11,233 bases of DNA from Succinivibrionaceae bacterium WG-1 (GCA_000222855.1 GL995228.1:7404-18636), one strand, 5' to 3'. Positions 2,068-10,043 are shown, numbered from the stretch's first letter. Numbers and translations: made by a program. The notes: generated from the letters alone by a model not told the origin.

Positions 2068-3342
2068 TTAGAGCTTGTTACCACATTGCGGACAGAATTT
2101 TGAAGCAATACCTTCAATTGTAAAACCACAATTTGGACAAGTTGCGCTTGAAGTTTGAGGTTTTGGTTTACCGCATTCAGTACAGAATTTACCGGTGTTT
2201 ACGGTGCCACATGCACAAGTCCATCCAGCAGGAGCTTCAGGCTTTTTATTACCACATTCAGTACAGAACTTACCTGTGTTTACAGTGCCACAAGCACAAG
2301 TCCAACCATTAGCTTGAGTTGGTTGTTGTTGCTGTTGCGCCATTCCAAATAAGCTTGCCGCATTCATGTTTCCGCCCATGCCTTGTGCAAGTCCCATCCC
2401 CATAAAGCCATTCATAGCACCATTGGCGTTTCCTGCAGCAGTCTTTAATGCATCAGCTTGAGCAGCAGCAGTTTGCGCAGCTGCTAACGCAGGATTTGCA
2501 AAAGCAGTAGCACGTTGTAAAGTCTTTAAGAGTTCTTGTTCTTCTTCTGGTAATGAAACTGAATTTAATGCAATTGAGAATACTGTAATACCACGTTTTG
2601 ACCACTTTTCATTAAGAACTTTATTCATGCTTTCACAAAGTTCATCAACGTGTTGCGGAATTGCATATGGTCTAATGTTTAAATTAGATAAAGCACCAAA
2701 TGCTTCATTTAAACCACCAACAAACTCTTGTTTTAATGTTGGAAGAATAGTTTCCTTTTCATATACATCTGCAACGTTACCACCTAATTCTCTATAAAAA
2801 GAAACAGGGTCTGTAATCTTAAATGTAAACATACCATTGCAACGTACAGACAAGTCCATATCAATATTTATATTTCTATCAACGATACGGAACGGAATCG
2901 GATTTACTGTACCAAACTTATTATCAACAATTTCTTTAATGTTAAAGTAGTACACACGTTGATCAGTTCCTGCAAGACCGCCCATCTTAAAACGTTCCCA
3001 CATTGTACCAAGAACATCTTTTACTTTTTGAACGTTTAATGGACCATAAAATACAGTAGGTTGAGCACCTTTATCATAGGTATAACGACCAGGTTCTGCA
3101 GCTACTTCTGTTACAATACCTTGGTCTACTACAATTGCACATTGACCATCTGCAACAACAATACCAGAACCATCAGATATTACATTATCACTTCCATCGG
3201 TATTTGAAGAACGGCTACTTGTATTCTTAAATCCCTTAACCATAAGAGTGTCATTATCTAATGAATTACAAGTAAAATACTCTTTCCATTGATCGGCTAA
3301 AGTACCGCTCATTGCACCAATTGCTGCTTTAATTAAACCCAT
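2068..3342 (-). CDS. SPFH/band-7 (stomatin-prohibitin-flotillin) family protein with a Gly/Ala/Gln-rich linker and three C-terminal zinc-ribbon modules (COG4260-like; resembles the flotillin-like YdjI associated with PspA in Bacillus).
   Basis: 424-aa ORF. The N-terminus MGLIKAAIGA... and the overall SPFH-like pattern are typical of COG4260 proteins. The C-terminus has WTCACGTVNTGKFCTECG twice plus CPNCG...CPQCG. A GGAG ribosome-binding site lies 7 nt before the ATG. Confidence 0.7.
   Translation of the reverse strand: MGLIKAAIGAMSGTLADQWKEYFTCNSLDNDTLMVKGFKNTSSRSSNTDGSDNVISDGSGIVVADGQCAIVVDQGIVTEVAAEPGRYTYDKGAQPTVFYGPLNVQKVKDVLGTMWERFKMGGLAGTDQRVYYFNIKEIVDNKFGTVNPIPFRIVDRNINIDMDLSVRCNGMFTFKITDPVSFYRELGGNVADVYEKETILPTLKQEFVGGLNEAFGALSNLNIRPYAIPQHVDELCESMNKVLNEKWSKRGITVFSIALNSVSLPEEEQELLKTLQRATAFANPALAAAQTAAAQADALKTAAGNANGAMNGFMGMGLAQGMGGNMNAASLFGMAQQQQQPTQANGWTCACGTVNTGKFCTECGNKKPEAPAGWTCACGTVNTGKFCTECGKPKPQTSSATCPNCGFTIEGIASKFCPQCGNKL
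2171..2309 (-). repeat. Intragenic tandem duplication with period 81 bp (27 codons), encoding two copies of the WTCACGTVNTGKFCTECG zinc-ribbon module.
   Basis: 2171-2228 and 2252-2309 are near-identical at the DNA level (ccgcattcagtacagaatttaccggtgtttacggtgccacatgcacaagtcca vs ccacattcagtacagaacttacctgtgtttacagtgccacaagcacaagtcca). Confidence 0.7.
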
Positions 3343-5120: not shown

Positions 5121-5170
5121 AAAAAAAAAATTATTCAGAATGCATAAAACATTCTGAATAAATCTTTTTA
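5121..5170. terminator. Hairpin with a perfect 12-bp stem TTATTCAGAATG (5131-5142) / CATTCTGAATAA (5150-5161), 7-nt loop, preceded by A10 and followed by TCTTTTT. Bidirectional terminator/insulator between the DGR unit and the symporter gene.
   Basis: Read directly from the sequence. Lies in a 524-bp intergenic region, upstream of the symporter start and about 420 nt downstream of the RT stop. Confidence 0.5.
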
Positions 5171-5580: not shown

Positions 5581-6165
5581 TTAATGTCTAGTTAATATAA
5601 GTTTGTTTAAATATTTAGAAAATAACTTGTAACAATTACCATAAAGCAAATATCCTTTATAACTCATAACAACTTGTCTGACATCTTCATACGACATTTT
5701 TCTTTCTGTGTAATTTTTGCTTAAAAATTTAAATTTGTTTTTAAATCTAGTTTTTGTTTGTCGCTTTACATATTTTAGGATCTTTCCTGTTTCTGTTAAA
5801 ATTATTCTAAATCCTAAAAATGTTACCCCGTTTTTTATTGGTATTATTTGAGTTTTACTGTTCAATAATAATTTTTCATCTTGAGATAACTTATTCTTCA
5901 ACAACGCTAAAGCTGTTTGAAGATACGATTTATCATGATGAATTATCAAAAAATCATCCATATATCTTGTATAATATTTAAATCCCATAGCTTCTTTTAA
6001 AAATCTATCCATGGAATCAAGATAATAAATGGCAAACCACTGACTTGTTTGATTCCCCATTGGTAAACCTTTATTAGGAGCAACTTCATAACTGTCAATT
6101 ATATCGTGAAGTATTTTTAATACTTTATTATCTAAATTTAACCTTTTAGTTTTTCTTTCAAAACA
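5581..6165 (-). CDS. DGR reverse transcriptase, C-terminal part (motifs 4-7: GLPMGNQTSQWFAIYYL, YTRYMDDFLII, thumb). The open frame extends upstream of the annotated Met to 6165, reading ...KTKRLNLDNKVLKILHDIIDSYEVAPNKGLPMGNQTSQ...
   Basis: The ORF track gives 5581-6060. My manual translation of 6061-6165 in the same frame is open and encodes RT-like sequence. YMDD is the catalytic YxDD box, and the SQ-containing motif 4 is diagnostic of DGR RTs rather than group II intron RTs (which have QG). Confidence 0.8.
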   Translation of the reverse strand, partial: CFERKTKRLNLDNKVLKILHDIIDSYEVAPNKGLPMGNQTSQWFAIYYLDSMDRFLKEAMGFKYYTRYMDDFLIIHHDKSYLQTALALLKNKLSQDEKLLLNSKTQIIPIKNGVTFLGFRIILTETGKILKYVKRQTKTRFKNKFKFLSKNYTERKMSYEDVRQVVMSYKGYLLYGNCYKLFSKYLNKLILTRH

Positions 6166-6635
6166 TCATGATCTATTGAATCAAAAAATTTTTTTATATC
6201 ACATTTAAGAAAATACCCATTATTTTGATATTTAGAATAAAATTTTCTTAAAAAATAAGTTAATCTATCTAATGAAAAATGTAACCCTTTTCCTATTCTA
6301 CAAGCACAGTTATCATAAATCAGTTTTTTATCAATCACAGGGGCTAAGATTTCATCACATAAACAATGTTGAACAACTCTATCTTGATAATATAAAGCAT
6401 GTATCAATCTTTTTTTAGGTTCAAAAACATAAAAAGAATAATAACCAGAAATTCTATACGTTCCGTTTAACAATTGTTCCCTAAGTCTTGTTAAATTAAA
6501 AGCTAATTGCATTTCAAAAGAAATTACTTCTATTTTATTATTCTTACTTCTCTTTGCTTTTCTATGAGCTTTATATAGATTTGAAAAATCTGTTAATTTA
6601 TCAAAATCAGATAAAGTAGTTGCAGCATTATTCAT
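6138..6635 (-). CDS. DGR reverse transcriptase, N-terminal part (NLYKAHRKAKRSK..., FEPKKRLIHALYYQDRVVQH, CRIGKG, YFLKCDIKKFFDSIDH = RT motifs 1-3). It ends at a stop that overlaps the downstream RT frame by 28 nt, so the RT gene is frameshifted.
   Basis: 165-aa ORF. Motif content and order match DGR RTs (Brt-like). The stop at 6138-6140 is in a different frame from the continuing RT frame (6165 to 5581). Confidence 0.8.
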   Translation of the reverse strand: MNNAATTLSDFDKLTDFSNLYKAHRKAKRSKNNKIEVISFEMQLAFNLTRLREQLLNGTYRISGYYSFYVFEPKKRLIHALYYQDRVVQHCLCDEILAPVIDKKLIYDNCACRIGKGLHFSLDRLTYFLRKFYSKYQNNGYFLKCDIKKFFDSIDHDVLKEKLKG

Positions 6636-6825
6636 AAAAAATGACTTTATAAGCGTAGTAGGCCGATAGGAGTATAAACTCTAGGTTATATAAACTAAAA
6701 AGCGTATATAACCCTACCGGCTAATATTTACCTTTTTATCTAGGAAGGAAATGATTCCTTTAGTCTCGACTCTGTTTAAATCTACTTAGAATTAAAATCA
6801 CGTTTTAGAGAACTTTGAAACTAAG
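6636..6825 (-). ncRNA. Candidate DGR spacer region between TR and RT, probably part of the structured DGR RNA that primes cDNA synthesis.
   Basis: Non-coding 190 nt lying directly between the TR 3' end and the RT start. Contains a short hairpin AAGGAA-atga-TTCCTT (6745-6760) and a direct repeat AAAGCGTA (6650-6657, 6700-6707). The functional assignment is by analogy to the Bordetella phage DGR only. Confidence 0.35.
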
Positions 6826-6939
6826 GCGGGACGAACACCAACATTTGTATTGTTAACGTTGTTGTTGTTGATGTTACCATCGTTGTTTACATTCTGTACA
6901 TTGTTATTGTTACTCCCAGGCGAGCGCAACCAATAATAA
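6826..6939 (-). repeat. DGR template repeat (TR), 114 bp. On the coding strand it encodes YYWLRSPGSNNNNVQNVNNDGNINNNNVNNTNVGVRPA, rich in AAC/AAT codons.
   Basis: Identical to 7477-7590 except at 16 positions. Every one is T on the + strand (A on the coding strand) in this copy, while the other copy has A, G or C. No indels (offset exactly 651 bp). Confidence 0.92.
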
Positions 6940-6987
6940 GAATTTTATAATCATTCCCTAGATAATGATCATATCAAAATCTAACAA

Positions 6988-7380
6988 TTATTGCCATCTC
7001 CTTCTATCAGAATTCATCCATGCTCCTAATAAATTCTGACAGTCTGTTGTCAATTTAGCAATCTGACAATATTGCTTCATGAGTATAGCATTCATTGTCA
7101 ATGCAAGTTCTGCGTAATAAGCTAACAATTTTATATTTGTCATAGCTTCTCTTTGTAATGACAATCTAAAATTTAAAGCATTAAAATCTCCCCTATTTAC
7201 AAAAACATCATTTGCTTTATATATTTCCCCTATAATATCCAATGCTAAATTTTGCAATCTTGTAACAATTGTAAATCTAAATTGTTTTGGAGATTTTTGA
7301 GTAACTGTGATTATATAACTACAAAGTTCCTTAGCTTTAGTTACGATTGATAATTCTGATTGTGGTCTACAATTGTTCAT
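6988..7380 (-). CDS. avd: DGR accessory variability determinant (Avd-like four-helix-bundle protein).
   Basis: 130 aa, placed between VR and TR as in canonical DGRs. The pattern ...LSIVTKAKELCSYIITVTQKSPKQFRFTIVTRLQNLALDIIGEIYKAN... and the basic C-terminus LGAWMNSDRRRWQ resemble bAvd / S23-associated four-helix-bundle proteins. No obvious SD; the ATG directly follows the hairpin U-tract. Confidence 0.75.
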   Translation of the reverse strand: MNNCRPQSELSIVTKAKELCSYIITVTQKSPKQFRFTIVTRLQNLALDIIGEIYKANDVFVNRGDFNALNFRLSLQREAMTNIKLLAYYAELALTMNAILMKQYCQIAKLTTDCQNLLGAWMNSDRRRWQ

Positions 7381-7386
7381 AAAAAA

Positions 7387-7408
7387 TTTATCGCGCCTTA
7401 CGGCGCGA
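7387..7408 (-). terminator. GC-rich stem-loop between the target gene and avd: TCGCGCC (7391-7397) / GGCGCGA (7402-7408), loop TTAC. On the minus strand it is followed by UAAAUUUUUU (revcomp of 7381-7390). Candidate intrinsic terminator/attenuator and/or a DGR homing-associated hairpin.
   Basis: Read directly from the sequence. A 7-bp all-GC stem is very conspicuous in this ~27% GC context. It lies 69 nt 3' of the VR end and immediately 5' of the avd ATG. Confidence 0.55.
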
Positions 7409-7457
7409 AATTCCTTTGGTCATGAATTGGATGATTTCAGATTTGAAGATTATCAGA

Positions 7458-10043
7458 TTACAGATTTATCCATAAAGCGGGACGAACACCAACAAGTGTA
7501 CTGAGAACGTAGTTGTAGTAGATGATACCATCGTTGTGGACACTCTGCACAAAGTTATTGTAACTCCCAGGCGAGCGCAACCAATAATAACCGTAACCAT
7601 TATCAGTATATAAATCTAATTCTGCTACATAATTTGAAAATTTTGCCCTTTTATCTTTCAAATATTTTTGTACTTCAGTATCATCTAATAACCAAATTTT
7701 ATCATTAGAAACATTATCATCTCTTGTAACAATTTTAGATTGCACAATTTGTTTTTGCTCTGTTTTAGAAAAGGAATTTTCTAAAAAAATATTATTTAAC
7801 CATTTCCTAATGCTTGAATCAGACCATTTATTACTACTAGTATTACCTCTAAAAGGTTTTACATCTAAAATAATATCACTTAAAAGTAAAGCTTTGCCAT
7901 CTTTTACATCTAAAACTCTCCACATTATTGGAGACTTTTTTTCTAAGCTTTCTTGCCAATATTGTCCAAATTTAACAACATCATTAATCTTAATATTTTT
8001 ATTTATACTATTACGAAAATCATTTGCCTGTAAGACATTTAGTGCTTCTAAAGAATCCTCATGAACTTCGTTAAATCGCTTATACAAAAATAATGATTTT
8101 TGTTTTAAATTTTGAGTATATTCATTTAAGCTATTTTTATCTTTAAAAACATACTCATCAACAATTATAAGATTATTAACTATATGCTTATACTCATTCA
8201 AATATTCTTTATCTTTATTATCTTGTGGATTTAATGACTTTATATCATTAAAACATTTTTGTTTAAACTCATATAGCTCTTCTAATCTATTGCTATTGTA
8301 TAATTTTGCAACATATTGATAAAACTCTTGATAACTTCTAAAACAATAATTTCCTTTATCAAAAACTAGTGTTGTCTTTATAACACTATCTAGTTGTTCA
8401 GATTTATTTCCAACAAAAATGTTCATTATATTCGTTAAATCATCTTTTACATTGCTAATAAAAGAAACATACGCAACAACATCTTTATCATATAATTCGT
8501 TACAAAAATTCAGAAAATCTTGTACTGATTTAAAAGATTTTTTGTTTATAACAAAATCTTCCCTACCTGTTAAAGCATAACCTAATCTTAAAGCTTGATA
8601 AGTATCATCAATATTTTGTTCCGATATTAATTTCTTTTGTAATTCAAGAACCTCAACATAATTTTGACTTAAATCCTTGTCTAAAACTTTATTTTTACAA
8701 TAATTTATCAAAAATGCATTAAGTAATTTTTTGGCACTTTTTACAATTTTATCTTGTCCTTTACTACCTAACTTGGCTTCGTTTATTAAAGCATTACCAT
8801 AATCGTTTAAGTCTGTAAAAACATATCCTTGCCAATAAATTTTTGTAAGAGTTGGTTCTAACTGATATAAAAGCTTTTGATATCTAAAATCGTCATTAGG
8901 ATTATTTTGTAGCACCTCCATTGCTTGTCTACAAAATTCTGTTTCTTTTTCTTTATTATTGATATCGTAATGTCTTTCGAGTAAGCCTCGACCTACTTCT
9001 TTTTTACCAAGTTCCCAATTTGTTCCTAAAGCATCAATTAAATCATAATTTGAAGTATATATTGTGCCATTAAACTTGTATGGAATTGAAGTTTGCTTTG
9101 AATTTGATGATGCACTTGCCAAACTTGAATTAAAATCCCCTGGAATTACTTGTTCTTCACCTTTTAACCATTTTTGAACTTCGGTATAAGTCCAACGTTT
9201 ATTAGGATTATTAGCTTCATTACGATTTGAAATATCTTTATAGGTTAAACCTAAAATTAAATTCTTTAAGTCTTGAGGAAAATCTACCGCAAATGGAATT
9301 TTTTGAATAGAAGCAAGACCAGCTAATTGCGAACTACTTATATTACTATTTTGAAAAGGAGTAAAACCTGTGAATAATTCATAAATCATTATGCCTAATG
9401 CATAATAATCAGTCTCTTTTGTAAAACTATTATTAAAGGCTTCTGGTGCTAAATAAGTTGGAGTCATACCTGTCTGAGTAAACACAACAGTATTACCATT
9501 GGTAACAGAACTTATACCAAAATCAATTATTACTAAATTGCCTTCATTATCTATCATTACATTGTCAGGTTTTAAATCCTTATGTAAGATATCTAATTGA
9601 TGAATATTATTTAATCCTGTTACTATTTGCGGAATAATTTGTTCTTTTAATTCTTGTTCAGAAAATGTGCCACAATTTTGCAAGTAACTTCTTAAAGAAC
9701 CATTAGTAAAATAAGGCATTACTACATATGTAAATCCCAATTCTTCTGAATAATAAGATACAGGAGCAACATACTGAGGTTTTGAATTAAAAATTTTTGC
9801 AATAACTTCAGCTTTTAAGGCGTCTTTACGACGATAAAGTTTAACAATTTGTTCTGAATTATCATTTATATCAATGGCTTTATATAAATCAGATTCACTT
9901 GAATACGTATTTAATTTCTCTGTAACATTAAATCGATTATTTAATGTTCTGCCTAAAAGATTAGGAATATCTGCATTATTTTGAGAGTTTGAATTTATTT
10001 TTGTAGCTAAATTTTTTAACTTATTTATTAACGTAGTAGCCAT
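7458..10043 (-). CDS. DGR target protein. N-terminal Hanks-type Ser/Thr protein kinase domain, roughly 400-aa alpha-helical-looking middle region, and C-terminal variable domain (probably C-type-lectin/FGE-like fold) carrying the VR. No signal peptide or TM segment, so predicted cytoplasmic.
   Basis: 861 aa. Kinase motifs are visible: VKLY (beta3 Lys), HKDLKPDN (catalytic loop, non-RD), IIDFGIS (DFG), TYLAPE (APE). The glycine-rich loop is degenerate. The C-terminal ~140 aa (KFGQYWQ...WLRSPG...VGVRPALWINL) ends with the VR. An AGGT ribosome-binding site lies 8 nt before the ATG. Confidence 0.8.
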   Translation of the reverse strand: MATTLINKLKNLATKINSNSQNNADIPNLLGRTLNNRFNVTEKLNTYSSESDLYKAIDINDNSEQIVKLYRRKDALKAEVIAKIFNSKPQYVAPVSYYSEELGFTYVVMPYFTNGSLRSYLQNCGTFSEQELKEQIIPQIVTGLNNIHQLDILHKDLKPDNVMIDNEGNLVIIDFGISSVTNGNTVVFTQTGMTPTYLAPEAFNNSFTKETDYYALGIMIYELFTGFTPFQNSNISSSQLAGLASIQKIPFAVDFPQDLKNLILGLTYKDISNRNEANNPNKRWTYTEVQKWLKGEEQVIPGDFNSSLASASSNSKQTSIPYKFNGTIYTSNYDLIDALGTNWELGKKEVGRGLLERHYDINNKEKETEFCRQAMEVLQNNPNDDFRYQKLLYQLEPTLTKIYWQGYVFTDLNDYGNALINEAKLGSKGQDKIVKSAKKLLNAFLINYCKNKVLDKDLSQNYVEVLELQKKLISEQNIDDTYQALRLGYALTGREDFVINKKSFKSVQDFLNFCNELYDKDVVAYVSFISNVKDDLTNIMNIFVGNKSEQLDSVIKTTLVFDKGNYCFRSYQEFYQYVAKLYNSNRLEELYEFKQKCFNDIKSLNPQDNKDKEYLNEYKHIVNNLIIVDEYVFKDKNSLNEYTQNLKQKSLFLYKRFNEVHEDSLEALNVLQANDFRNSINKNIKINDVVKFGQYWQESLEKKSPIMWRVLDVKDGKALLLSDIILDVKPFRGNTSSNKWSDSSIRKWLNNIFLENSFSKTEQKQIVQSKIVTRDDNVSNDKIWLLDDTEVQKYLKDKRAKFSNYVAELDLYTDNGYGYYWLRSPGSYNNFVQSVHNDGIIYYNYVLSTLVGVRPALWINL
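7477..7590 (-). repeat. DGR variable repeat (VR), the last 114 bp of the target gene (ends 17 nt before the stop). Encodes YYWLRSPGSYNNFVQSVHNDGIIYYNYVLSTLVGVRPA.
   Basis: Relative to the TR, 13 codons differ. Eleven are Asn-to-X changes (Y,F,S,H,I,Y,Y,Y,L,S,L) and two are silent third-position changes, all at TR adenines. The 3' 18 nt (coding strand TGTTGGTGTTCGTCCCGC) are GC-rich and identical in TR and VR, as expected for an IMH-like element. Confidence 0.92.

What the first reader, a model, noticed from the sequence alone, without database searches (positions are those of the whole stretch)
5581..10043. Complete diversity-generating retroelement with adenine-only TR/VR divergence
114 bp at 6826-6939 (TR) and 7477-7590 (VR, 3' end of an 861-aa gene) align without gaps at a constant offset of 651 bp. 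They differ at exactly 16 positions (TR coords 6844, 6845, 6850, 6853, 6854, 6860, 6866, 6869, 6874, 6887, 6888, 6892, 6897, 6901, 6902, 6911). At every one the TR copy has T on the + strand, which is A on the coding minus strand, while the VR has A, G or C. Eleven of fifteen TR Asn codons (AAC/AAT) are replaced in the VR and two Val codons carry silent changes. Together with an Avd-like ORF and an RT with the DGR-specific GNQTSQxFA motif arranged target-VR / avd / TR / RT, this is an unambiguous DGR that has been mutagenically active.
Basis: seen in the sequence. Interest (0 to 1): 0.85.

Follow-up and report, generated by a model that had tools for sequence, protein, structure and literature searches.

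The report
Active DGR diversifying a protein kinase
This is a genuine diversity-generating retroelement in a gut Succinivibrionaceae bacterium that rewrites the ligand-binding tip of a cytoplasmic protein kinase, an ordinary member of a known kind, and in this particular sequence its reverse transcriptase gene is split by a one-base deletion.

Summary
TR (6822/6826-6939) and VR (7473/7477-7590) align without gaps at offset 651. They differ at the 16 listed positions, and all 16 are TR adenines on the coding (minus) strand.

Two independent assemblies are about 99% identical to the window. Both have the same TR but different VRs, and 49 of the 50 differences from TR lie at adenines. This is direct evidence of repeated mutagenic homing.

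The other parts fit a DGR:
- The RT matches Bordetella phage Brt far better than it matches group II intron RTs.
- In 46 TR/VR pairs next to related RTs, 93% of mismatches are at adenines.
- Avd matches DGR Avd models.
- The VR lies in a C-terminal DUF6273 domain whose model has a C-type-lectin fold.
- The target is a soluble Hanks-type Ser/Thr kinase.

One correction is needed. "Complete" is not true of the sequence as given. The RT is split into 165-aa and 159-aa ORFs by a missing A in the run at 6144-6147. Both related assemblies have the intact 351-aa gene. I think a homopolymer sequencing error is more likely (about 60%) than real inactivation.

Kinase-lectin DGR targets are already described, so this is a new member of a known kind. 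In passing I found a conserved AATCT repeat array after VRs in this RT lineage.

The parts
7458..10043 (-). Target gene, 861 aa. It has an N-terminal Hanks-type Ser/Thr kinase domain (about residues 30-290), a middle region of five repeats of a beta-hairpin plus helices (about 320-680), and a C-terminal DUF6273 domain of C-type-lectin fold (715-860) that carries the VR.
7473..7590 (-). Variable repeat (VR), codons 819-857 of the target. The diversified codons are 828-850.
   Evidence: The three alleles in the window, L001 and L002 differ from one another at 16-25 positions. All but one of these positions are at TR adenines.
7473..7493 (-). IMH-like 3' end of the VR. GTTGGTGTTCGTCCCGC is a 17-nt adenine-free block identical in TR and VR. 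It is followed by TTTA in the VR and CTTA in the TR, after which the two sequences diverge.
   Evidence: Read directly from the sequence. The block GTTCG(C/T)CCCGC is conserved across the RT clade. Its function is inferred from the Bordetella phage IMH (PMC3240598, PMC5758913).
7426..7472 (-). Array of four ATCT motifs at 7-8 nt spacing, plus one ATCA, immediately after the VR. It overlaps the last four codons and the stop codon. It is a candidate target-side cis element specific to this DGR lineage.
   Evidence: The same array follows 45 VRs in the RT clade, at 3.2 ATCT per 60 nt against a background of 0.28. It is also present where the VR is internal to a coding gene (L155, L162, L163, and phage nd12). 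It is absent after TRs and absent in BPP-1. Its function has not been shown.
7391..7408 (-). GC-rich hairpin TCGCGCC-GTAA-GGCGCGA followed by TAAATTTTTT, lying between the target stop codon and the avd start codon.
   Evidence: Comparable hairpins with other stem sequences, often with a GTAA, GAA or GCA loop and a T run, follow VRs across the clade. The hairpin is 64 nt from the VR and its loop is not GRNA. It therefore differs from the phage consensus of Guo et al. (PMC3240598). It could equally be an intrinsic terminator.
6988..7380 (-). avd, the accessory variability determinant, 130 aa.
   Evidence: PHROG 'Avd protein of DGR' E 5e-19. NCBIfam DivGenRetAVD scores 47 bits against a cut-off of 80. 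Pfam bAvd scores 35 bits against a cut-off of 40. The protein is 100% identical in L001 and L002.
6822..6939 (-). Template repeat (TR). It is non-coding, has 40 adenines and reads as 15 AAY codons in the VR frame.
   Evidence: It is identical in the window, L001 and L002.
6636..6821 (-). Spacer of the DGR RNA between the TR and the RT start codon. Helix P1 pairs the last bases of the TR and its 3' flank (6818-6829) with 6757-6766, just upstream of the conserved AAAGGAATC.
   Evidence: The consensus fold of 30 clade members has 13 pairs, and 11 of them show compensatory changes. 92.8% of cells are paired, against 39-56% when the partners are slid. No shuffle out of 500 reached the observed covariation score. 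Mapping to window coordinates shows all 8 P1 pairs formed, while helix 3 is only weakly matched in the window.
5581..6635 (-). Reverse transcriptase gene, interrupted here. The N-terminal ORF is 6138-6635 (165 aa) and the C-terminal ORF is 5581-6060 (159 aa, which carries MGNQTSQWFA and YMDD). The frames can only be joined within about 6141-6165.
   Evidence: Adding one A gives a 351-aa protein that is 100% identical to the RT of L001 and L002. The best PDB match is 8ub7_A at E 4e-39, which is BPP-1 Brt.
6144..6147 (-). Site of the frameshift. The window has a run of four A on the coding strand (T4 on the + strand), where L001 and L002 have five.

Best explanation
The locus is a chromosomal diversity-generating retroelement of a Succinivibrionaceae bacterium, arranged target(VR)-avd-TR-RT on the minus strand.

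A transcript containing the TR and the structured spacer is reverse transcribed by the RT together with Avd. Random nucleotides are inserted opposite template adenines. The resulting cDNA replaces the VR at the 3' end of the target gene.

Replacement recodes up to 15 AAY codons and a few others in a surface beta-hairpin of a C-type-lectin-fold (DUF6273) domain. From the codon table I estimate at least about 10^17 possible sequences.

The target is a soluble Hanks-type Ser/Thr kinase. The element therefore most likely varies what the kinase binds: a ligand that regulates it, or a substrate. Relatives of this DGR diversify the same kind of domain fused to TIR, NACHT and SIR2 domains. By that analogy, the kinase is plausibly an intracellular sensor in a conflict or defence pathway.

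Shown here:
- the TR/VR anatomy and its adenine specificity;
- allelic VR turnover among near-identical genomes, with an invariant TR;
- the family assignments of RT, Avd and the lectin fold;
- conservation of the spacer RNA fold.

Inferred:
- the cDNA mechanism itself, taken from the Bordetella phage system;
- the roles of the IMH-like block, the AATCT array and the hairpin;
- the biological role of the kinase.

The 1-nt gap in the RT of this window is more likely a homopolymer under-call in this assembly (about 60%) than a real inactivating mutation.
For: TR/VR:
- The repeat pair has 16 of 16 mismatches at TR adenines, p about 6e-9.
- Two assemblies 99.1-99.5% identical to the window have an identical TR and different VRs. 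The counts at adenine are 16/16 in the window, 16/16 plus a 9-nt in-frame deletion in L001, and 17/18 in L002.

RT:
- The match to BPP-1 Brt is E 4e-39, against 4e-14 for the best group II intron RT.
- Among 80 metagenome loci with RTs 46-58% identical, 46 TR/VR pairs were found, and 836 of 903 mismatches are at TR adenines.
- The repaired RT is 100% identical to the intact 351-aa RT in L001 and L002.

Avd: PHROG Avd E 5e-19, and NCBIfam DivGenRetAVD is the only hit.

Target:
- Pfam finds Pkinase and DUF6273.
- All 38 clade targets carry DUF6273. Seven have Pkinase, four TIR_2, two NACHT and two SIR2_2.
- A 36%-identical kinase-DUF6273 target is followed by avd and RT in the same order in L084.

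Spacer RNA: helices with covariation.

The frameshift as an artefact:
- Six of six single-base indels against L001 are homopolymer deletions in the window.
- In the 6.5 kb shared by all three sequences, outside the VR, the window-specific changes are 4 such indels and only 3 substitutions.
Against: - As the sequence stands, the RT is not a single ORF, so this copy may be unable to mutagenise.
- Five of the six homopolymer differences are intergenic. Long A/T runs are also genuinely hypermutable. The pattern therefore does not exclude real mutations.
- Avd is below the curated cut-offs of Pfam and NCBIfam.
- The hairpin after the VR does not fit the published GRNA-loop and 4-34 bp pattern, and it looks like a terminator.
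- Nothing tested here shows what the kinase phosphorylates or what the lectin domain binds.
- The defence-sensor reading rests only on domain associations in relatives. No defence genes flank this locus; the neighbours are an outer-membrane protein gene and an alanine symporter gene.
Confidence: 0.93

Rival explanations
1. The element is a DGR, but in this strain it is genuinely dead. A real 1-nt deletion in the RT has frozen the VR at its present allele, and the other parts have not yet decayed.
For: The RT is split into 165-aa and 159-aa ORFs. Both pieces were called as separate genes on the 173.6-kb source contig, and only there. A DGR RT is dispensable, so a frameshift in it would not be purged. 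All other homopolymer differences lie outside genes, as expected if selection removes them from essential genes.
Against: Apart from the missing A, the RT is 100% identical at protein level to the intact alleles. All six indels run in the same direction, and the ratio of 4 indels to 3 substitutions is typical of homopolymer under-calling. The affected run is only 5 nt long, which is not a hypermutable length. The window's VR differs from both other alleles, so homing occurred recently in at least two of the three lineages.
Confidence: 0.38
2. The RT is made from the two ORFs by programmed -1 ribosomal frameshifting or transcriptional slippage at CTAAAAGG. The split would then be a regulatory feature.
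For: The frames overlap in a 25-nt stretch that contains A and T runs. A -1 shift on A AAA G would give exactly the full-length protein.
Against: The two closest relatives and all 17 clade RTs aligned encode the RT in a single frame. There is no X XXY YYZ heptamer and no obvious stimulatory structure. An A4 run is too short for efficient slippage.
Confidence: 0.03
3. The repeat is an ordinary duplication or gene-conversion tract that has diverged by normal mutation, and it merely lies next to an unrelated retroelement (group II intron, retron or defence RT).
For: The RT also gives weak matches to group II intron, retron and DRT models.
Against: All 16 differences are at adenines of one copy. 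That copy is invariant across three assemblies while the other varies. The RT is far closer to Brt than to any other RT class, and all scores to other classes are far below their cut-offs. No intron RNA or retron family was found by Rfam. Relatives of the RT all sit beside A-biased TR/VR pairs.
Confidence: 0.01

Closest known systems
Bordetella phage BPP-1 DGR (mtd-avd-TR-brt)
   Same: The gene order is the same: target with a C-terminal VR, then avd, TR and RT. Both show adenine-specific TR-to-VR differences, an A-free GC-rich block at the 3' end of the repeat, and a C-type-lectin-fold target domain. The RT aligns to Brt over 329 residues at E 4e-39 and has the GxxxSQ and YMDD motifs.
   Different: This element is chromosomal and not in a phage. 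Its target is a cytoplasmic kinase and not a tail-fibre protein. BPP-1 has a single GAAA-loop hairpin a few nucleotides after the VR and no AATCT array. Here an AATCT array is followed by a GTAA-loop hairpin at +64. The spacer sequences are unrelated.
Ser/Thr-kinase-CLec DGR targets of cyanobacteria (Vallota-Eastman et al. 2020, PMC7517822), the kinase-containing target type b12 of Wu et al. 2018 (PMC5758913), and Pkinase-CLec targets in Thiohalocapsa PB-PSB1 (bioRxiv 10.1101/2023.09.22.558884)
   Same: The target architecture is the same: an N-terminal Hanks-type kinase with a C-terminal diversified lectin-fold domain in a cellular, non-phage DGR.
   Different: The host is a gut Succinivibrionaceae bacterium. 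The lectin domain is of the DUF6273 type. The middle region is made of five repeats of a beta-hairpin plus helices. Only three other protein clusters share the full architecture in a database of 5.8 billion sequences.
DUF6273-targeting phage DGRs (phages nd4/nd12 'tentaclins', PMC10743442; Toutatisvirus hotspot, bioRxiv 10.1101/2024.10.15.618418)
   Same: The VR lies in a DUF6273 domain of lectin fold. The nd12 RT is the closest phage RT, at 44% identity. The nd12 VR is followed by the same ATCT array.
   Different: Those targets are phage receptor-binding or decoration proteins with Ig-like domains. This target is a cellular kinase.
DGR-diversified 'antigen sensor' proteins in conflict systems (Kaur et al. 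2020, PMC7159879; Dore et al. 2023, bioRxiv 10.1101/2023.09.22.558884)
   Same: Within this RT clade, the same variable lectin domain is fused to TIR, NACHT, SIR2, TPR or kinase modules.
   Different: Whether this RT belongs to the same RT lineage as those systems was not tested. No conflict-system partner genes were seen next to this locus.

Membership tests
Diversity-generating retroelement (DGR) | A TR/VR repeat pair whose differences fall at adenines of the non-coding template copy. | tested here: met
   16 of 16 differences are at TR adenines, with p about 6e-9.
Diversity-generating retroelement (DGR) | The TR is invariant while the VR varies between closely related genomes, and the variation is confined to TR-adenine positions. 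| tested here: met
   Three assemblies at least 99% identical have an identical TR and three different VR alleles. 49 of the 50 differences from the TR are at adenines.
Diversity-generating retroelement (DGR) | The reverse transcriptase belongs to the DGR clade ((I/L/M)GxxxSQ motif, closest to Brt) and not to group II intron or retron RTs. | tested here: met
   MGNQTSQ and YMDD are present. The match to Brt (8ub7) is E 4e-39, against 4e-14 for a group II RT. Relatives 46-58% identical flank 46 TR/VR pairs in which 93% of mismatches are at adenines. No formal phylogeny was built.
Diversity-generating retroelement (DGR) | An intact RT open reading frame. | tested here: not met
   In the window the gene is split at 6144-6147 into 165-aa and 159-aa ORFs. 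It is intact (351 aa) in L001 and L002. Whether the break is real or a sequencing error cannot be decided from the sequences held.
Diversity-generating retroelement (DGR) | An accessory protein Avd (or HRDC) encoded next to the TR. | tested here: met
   A 130-aa ORF lies between the target and the TR. PHROG 'Avd protein of DGR' gives E 5e-19. NCBIfam DivGenRetAVD (47 bits, cut-off 80) and Pfam bAvd (35 bits, cut-off 40) are the only hits but fall below their cut-offs.
Diversity-generating retroelement (DGR) | The VR lies in a C-type-lectin-fold (or Ig-like) domain, usually at the C-terminus of the target. | tested here: met
Diversity-generating retroelement (DGR) | An IMH at the 3' end of the VR, with a non-identical IMH* at the end of the TR. 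| tested here: inconclusive
   A 17-nt A-free block is shared by TR and VR, and the two sequences diverge right after it (TTTA in the VR, CTTA in the TR). This fits the published description (PMC5758913), but its function cannot be tested here.
Diversity-generating retroelement (DGR) | A GC-rich hairpin or cruciform with a 4-nt GRNA loop 4-34 bp downstream of the VR (the phage-type DGR pattern; reported in only 34% of DGRs). | tested here: inconclusive
   A 7-bp GC stem with a 4-nt loop is present. However, the loop is GTAA, the hairpin lies 64 nt from the VR, and it is followed by a T run like a terminator.
Diversity-generating retroelement (DGR) | Adenine-mutagenised cDNA synthesis and retrohoming shown experimentally. 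| not testable with these tools
   This needs wet-lab work or read-level population data.
Hanks-type Ser/Thr protein kinase (for the target) | A kinase fold with the catalytic Lys, the alphaC Glu, an HxD catalytic loop with a downstream Asn, and the DFG and APE motifs. | tested here: met
   Pkinase E 1e-38. IVK67-69, HKD154, DFG174 and APE199 are present. The match to PKA is E 1e-27. The Gly-rich loop GxGxxG is absent and the catalytic loop reads HKD, not HRD. Activity is therefore plausible but not assured.

The most novel reading that the evidence does not exclude
The array of AATCT motifs at 7-8 nt spacing that follows the VR here and in 45 related VRs may be a previously undescribed target-side recognition element of the DUF6273-associated DGR lineage. 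It also follows remote VRs, VRs inside coding sequence and the VR of a phage relative, but never a TR. It would mark VRs as recipients, taking over or supplementing the role that the single GRNA-loop hairpin plays in the Bordetella phage. A second and less likely novelty would be that the RT frameshift is real, so that natural populations carry switched-off DGR alleles next to active ones.
Probability: 0.3. Interest if true: 0.55.

Novelty: new member of a known kind. Interest (0 to 1): 0.38.

Why it matters
The locus is a clean, well-documented case of a cellular DGR acting on a cytoplasmic signalling kinase in a gut bacterium. Three natural VR alleles on an otherwise near-identical background show that the element has been active recently.

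This supports the emerging view that cellular DGRs diversify intracellular sensors as well as surface or phage receptor-binding proteins. The Succinivibrionaceae population concerned is probably the cultivable wallaby foregut WG-1 group, which is my inference. If so, it offers a tractable candidate for asking what such a kinase senses.

The conserved AATCT array and the spacer RNA fold give testable cis elements for how this lineage recognises its target. The split RT is a practical warning: DGR scanners that require an intact RT ORF would miss or mis-score this locus.

Tried and rejected
- Rfam at gathering thresholds and a tRNA scan of the window found nothing.
- A genome-contig scan with the target protein found no relative. 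The window's own 173.6-kb contig could not be retrieved by exact-protein look-up.
- The syntenic regions of other Succinivibrionaceae (L004-L083) contain no DGR and do not conserve the neighbourhood.
- No second VR was found in the window or on the 43-kb contig of L001/L003. The rest of the genome could not be searched.
- Sequence searches of Avd and of the C-terminal domain against PDB gave nothing significant. A fold search was needed to place the C-terminal domain.
- A text search for the PDB code 8UB7 found no paper. I identified the chain by matching its sequence to BPP-1 brt.
- The distribution of homopolymer indels between coding and intergenic DNA does not discriminate between sequencing error and real mutation.
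- I considered programmed frameshifting and rejected it, because all relatives are in frame.
- The padloc matches of the kinase (PD-T4-6, mad6) are generic kinase-domain similarity. I did not use them as evidence for a defence role.
- Wu et al. 2018 was searched for the terms 'downstream of VR', 'hairpin', 'stem-loop', 'direct repeats' and 'RNA structure', with no hits. Its inverted-repeat section describes only GC-rich inverted repeats and terminators. This does not establish that the AATCT array is unpublished.

Full report
**1. The observation**

The window contains one long direct repeat, 6822-6939 and 7473-7590, with a start-to-start spacing of 651 nt and 86% identity. There are sixteen mismatches between 6844 and 6911. 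At each one the TR copy has T on the + strand, which is A on the coding minus strand, and the VR copy has A, G or C.

It is a C-to-T difference in the short stretch after the adenine-free 3' block.

Read in the frame of the 861-aa ORF 7458-10043 (minus strand), the TR has 15 AAC/AAT codons. Eleven of them are altered in the VR, and two GTA codons carry silent changes. If 16 mismatches fell at random on the 113 aligned bases (40 A), all would be at A with probability 6e-9. Restricting to the 70-nt variable core gives 5e-6.

**2. The RT gene is split in this sequence**

The ORF list shows two minus-strand ORFs, 6138-6635 (165 aa) and 5581-6060 (159 aa), in different frames. The first carries RT motifs 1-3. 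The second begins with MGNQTSQWFA and carries YMDD.

The frames can be joined only within about 25 nt, and the simplest repair is one extra A in the run at 6144-6147 (coding strand CTAAAAGG). This gives a 351-aa protein.

**3. Independent copies of the locus**

An exact-protein look-up with Avd found the same locus in two other public assemblies:
- L001 is a 43-kb contig of the assembly GCA_965351355.1.
- L002 is contig ADGC01006584 of the Tammar wallaby foregut metagenome (PMC3818352).

The window is 99.1% identical to L001 and 99.5% identical to L002 over 11.2 kb and 6.5 kb respectively. Both encode an intact 351-aa RT. My repaired protein is 100% identical to it.

The TR is identical in all three sequences, while the three VRs all differ:
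- the window has 16 of 16 differences from the TR at adenines;
- L001 has 16 of 16 at adenines, plus a 9-nt in-frame deletion;
- L002 has 17 of 18 at adenines, with one G-to-T change.

The VRs differ from one another at 16-25 positions, and all but one of those are TR-adenine positions. It shows repeated mutagenic homing on a nearly clonal background. In-frame indels in VRs are a known non-canonical outcome (PMC5758913).

**4. Is the frameshift real?**

Against L001, the window has six single-base indels. All six are deletions in A or T runs: at 236, 468, 5119, 5216, 6143 and 6635. In the 6.5 kb shared by all three sequences, outside the VR, the window-specific changes are four such deletions and only three substitutions. 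This ratio, and the single direction of the indels, are what homopolymer under-calling produces.

On the other hand, five of the six lie in intergenic DNA. Long runs are also truly mutable, so the distribution does not discriminate between the two explanations. I put a sequencing artefact at about 60% and a real inactivating mutation at just under 40%. Programmed frameshifting is unlikely because every relative is in frame.

**5. Identity of the parts**

*RT.* The best solved-structure match is 8ub7 chain A at E 4e-39 over residues 11-339. The next is a group II intron RT at 4e-14. A tblastn search of part of that chain's sequence against the phage collection shows it is Brt of Bordetella phage BPP-1. 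NCBIfam matches to group II intron, retron and DRT models are all far below their cut-offs.

A metagenome scan returned 80 loci whose RTs are 46-58% identical to this one. Forty-six ungapped TR/VR pairs were found beside them, and 836 of 903 mismatches (93%) are at TR adenines. The RT therefore belongs to a lineage of working DGRs.

*Avd.* The 130-aa ORF matches PHROG 'Avd protein of DGR' at E 5e-19. It also matches the NCBIfam and Pfam Avd models, though below their cut-offs.

*Target.* Pfam finds Pkinase (E 1e-38) and DUF6273 (E 2e-23). The catalytic Lys, HKD, DFG and APE motifs are present, the Gly-rich loop is not, and there is no transmembrane segment.

The diversified codons 828-850 map to a beta-hairpin, model residues 139-161. 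This matches what has been described for DUF6273 targets of gut phages (PMC10743442). The full-length model (pLDDT 77) shows five repeats of a small beta-hairpin followed by helices between the kinase and the lectin domain.

**6. Context**

A neighbouring sigma-54 activator gene on L003 is 75-80% identical to those of Succinimonas, Ruminobacter and uncultured Succinivibrionaceae. The flanking genes in the window encode an outer-membrane beta-barrel protein, an alanine:sodium symporter, an SPFH protein and a zinc-ribbon protein. The element is therefore chromosomal and not in a prophage.

The dominant Succinivibrionaceae of the wallaby foregut is the WG-1 population (PMC9097414; taxonomy). That the window comes from WG-1 itself is my inference, not a result.

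**7. The target family**

All 38 targets recovered from the RT clade carry DUF6273. Seven have Pkinase, four TIR_2, two NACHT and two SIR2_2. Others have TPR, YobI-ATPase, fn3 or LRR domains.

A 36%-identical kinase-DUF6273 protein is followed by avd and RT in the same order in L084, and its TR/VR pair has 10 of 14 mismatches at adenines. The full architecture is rare: only three other clusters were found in the 5.8-billion-sequence database.

Kinase-lectin DGR targets are already known from three sources: cyanobacteria (PMC7517822), the survey of Wu et al. (PMC5758913) and Thiohalocapsa (bioRxiv 10.1101/2023.09.22.558884). In the Thiohalocapsa work such proteins are proposed to be hypervariable sensors in conflict systems.

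**8. Cis elements**

The spacer between the TR and the RT start folds into helices that are conserved in the clade. The main one is P1. It pairs the last bases of the TR and its 3' flank with a segment just before a conserved AAAGGAATC.

Eleven of the 13 predicted pairs show compensatory changes. 92.8% of cells are paired, against 39-56% when the partners are slid. No shuffle out of 500 reached the observed covariation score. In the window, P1 is 6818-6829 paired with 6757-6766. The second hairpin is only weakly matched there.

Downstream of the VR, the window reads TGGATAAATCTGTAATCTGATAATCTTCAAATCTGAAATCATCC, with four ATCT motifs at 7-8 nt spacing. A GC hairpin with a GTAA loop follows at 7391-7408, and then a T run.

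The same array follows VRs throughout the clade, at 3.2 ATCT per 60 nt against a background of 0.28. This includes remote VRs, VRs internal to coding genes and the VR of phage nd12. The array does not follow TRs and is absent from BPP-1.

The hairpin differs from the phage consensus of a GRNA loop 4-34 bp from the VR (PMC3240598). It could simply be a terminator. The papers I read do not describe the array, but I cannot show that it is unpublished.

**9. Verdict**

It is a new member of a known kind. It has good natural evidence of activity and a known but still poorly understood type of target.

Calling it "complete" needs the caveat of the split RT. Interest is moderate and not high. The part most worth following up is the AATCT array, as a possible lineage-specific target-recognition element.

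Noticed in passing
window 7426-7472 (minus strand); also L084, L092-L168 after each VR; L170 7817-7850: An array of 3-5 (A)ATCT motifs at 7-8 nt spacing immediately follows VRs in this RT lineage. It is usually followed by one to four GC hairpins separated by AATC(T). The array is present even where the VR is inside a coding sequence. It is absent after TRs and absent in Bordetella phage BPP-1.
   Followed up: partly
window 6144-6147, and 236, 468, 5119, 5216, 6635: The window has six one-base deletions in A/T homopolymer runs relative to L001. L002 agrees with L001 at the four sites it covers. One deletion splits the RT gene and the other five are intergenic.
   Followed up: yes
L001 9800-9908 (corresponds to window 7543-7551): The VR allele of L001 lacks 9 nt (three codons) relative to the TR, in frame, in addition to 16 adenine-site substitutions. 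The deletion can be placed at several adjacent positions without creating any non-adenine mismatch.
   Followed up: partly
L002 5772-5782 (window about 7713) and L002 88-3260 (from window about 10225 outward): In the wallaby metagenome contig, an extra G splits the target gene into 779-aa and 85-aa ORFs. Upstream of the target, the outer-membrane protein gene is replaced by an IS-type DDE transposase gene and a serine recombinase gene. The L002 VR also has one non-adenine (G-to-T) difference from the TR.
   Followed up: no
window 7617-7849 and 8406-8679 compared with L001: Two clusters of substitutions lie in the non-VR part of the target gene in L001, about 45 changes that are not adenine-specific. 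The rest of the locus is nearly identical. This looks like a recombination mosaic and not DGR action.
   Followed up: no
window 8000-9080 (target residues about 320-680): The region between the kinase and the lectin domain has no Pfam match. In the model it forms five repeats, each a small beta-hairpin followed by three or four helices.
   Followed up: no
window 2068-2312, and 764-2059; L088 4114-8550: The SPFH (Band_7_1) protein ends in tandem zinc-ribbon repeats (76-nt direct repeat 2152-2227 / 2233-2308) and is followed by a zinc-ribbon protein gene. In an unrelated contig, a Band_7_1 gene lies two genes upstream of a TIR-TPR-DUF6273 gene. This may be coincidence.
   Followed up: no
window 5131-5161: A 12-13 bp inverted repeat is flanked by a T run on one side and an A run on the other. 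This terminator-like site lies between the RT gene and the alanine symporter gene, about 420 nt past the RT stop codon.
   Followed up: no
L085-L087 6001-7524: A shorter kinase-DUF6273 protein (507 aa) in Clostridia sits in a cluster of FHA, PP2C, FtsW, transpeptidase and PASTA-kinase genes, with no RT within 6 kb. The kinase-DUF6273 fusion therefore also exists outside DGR cassettes.
   Followed up: no
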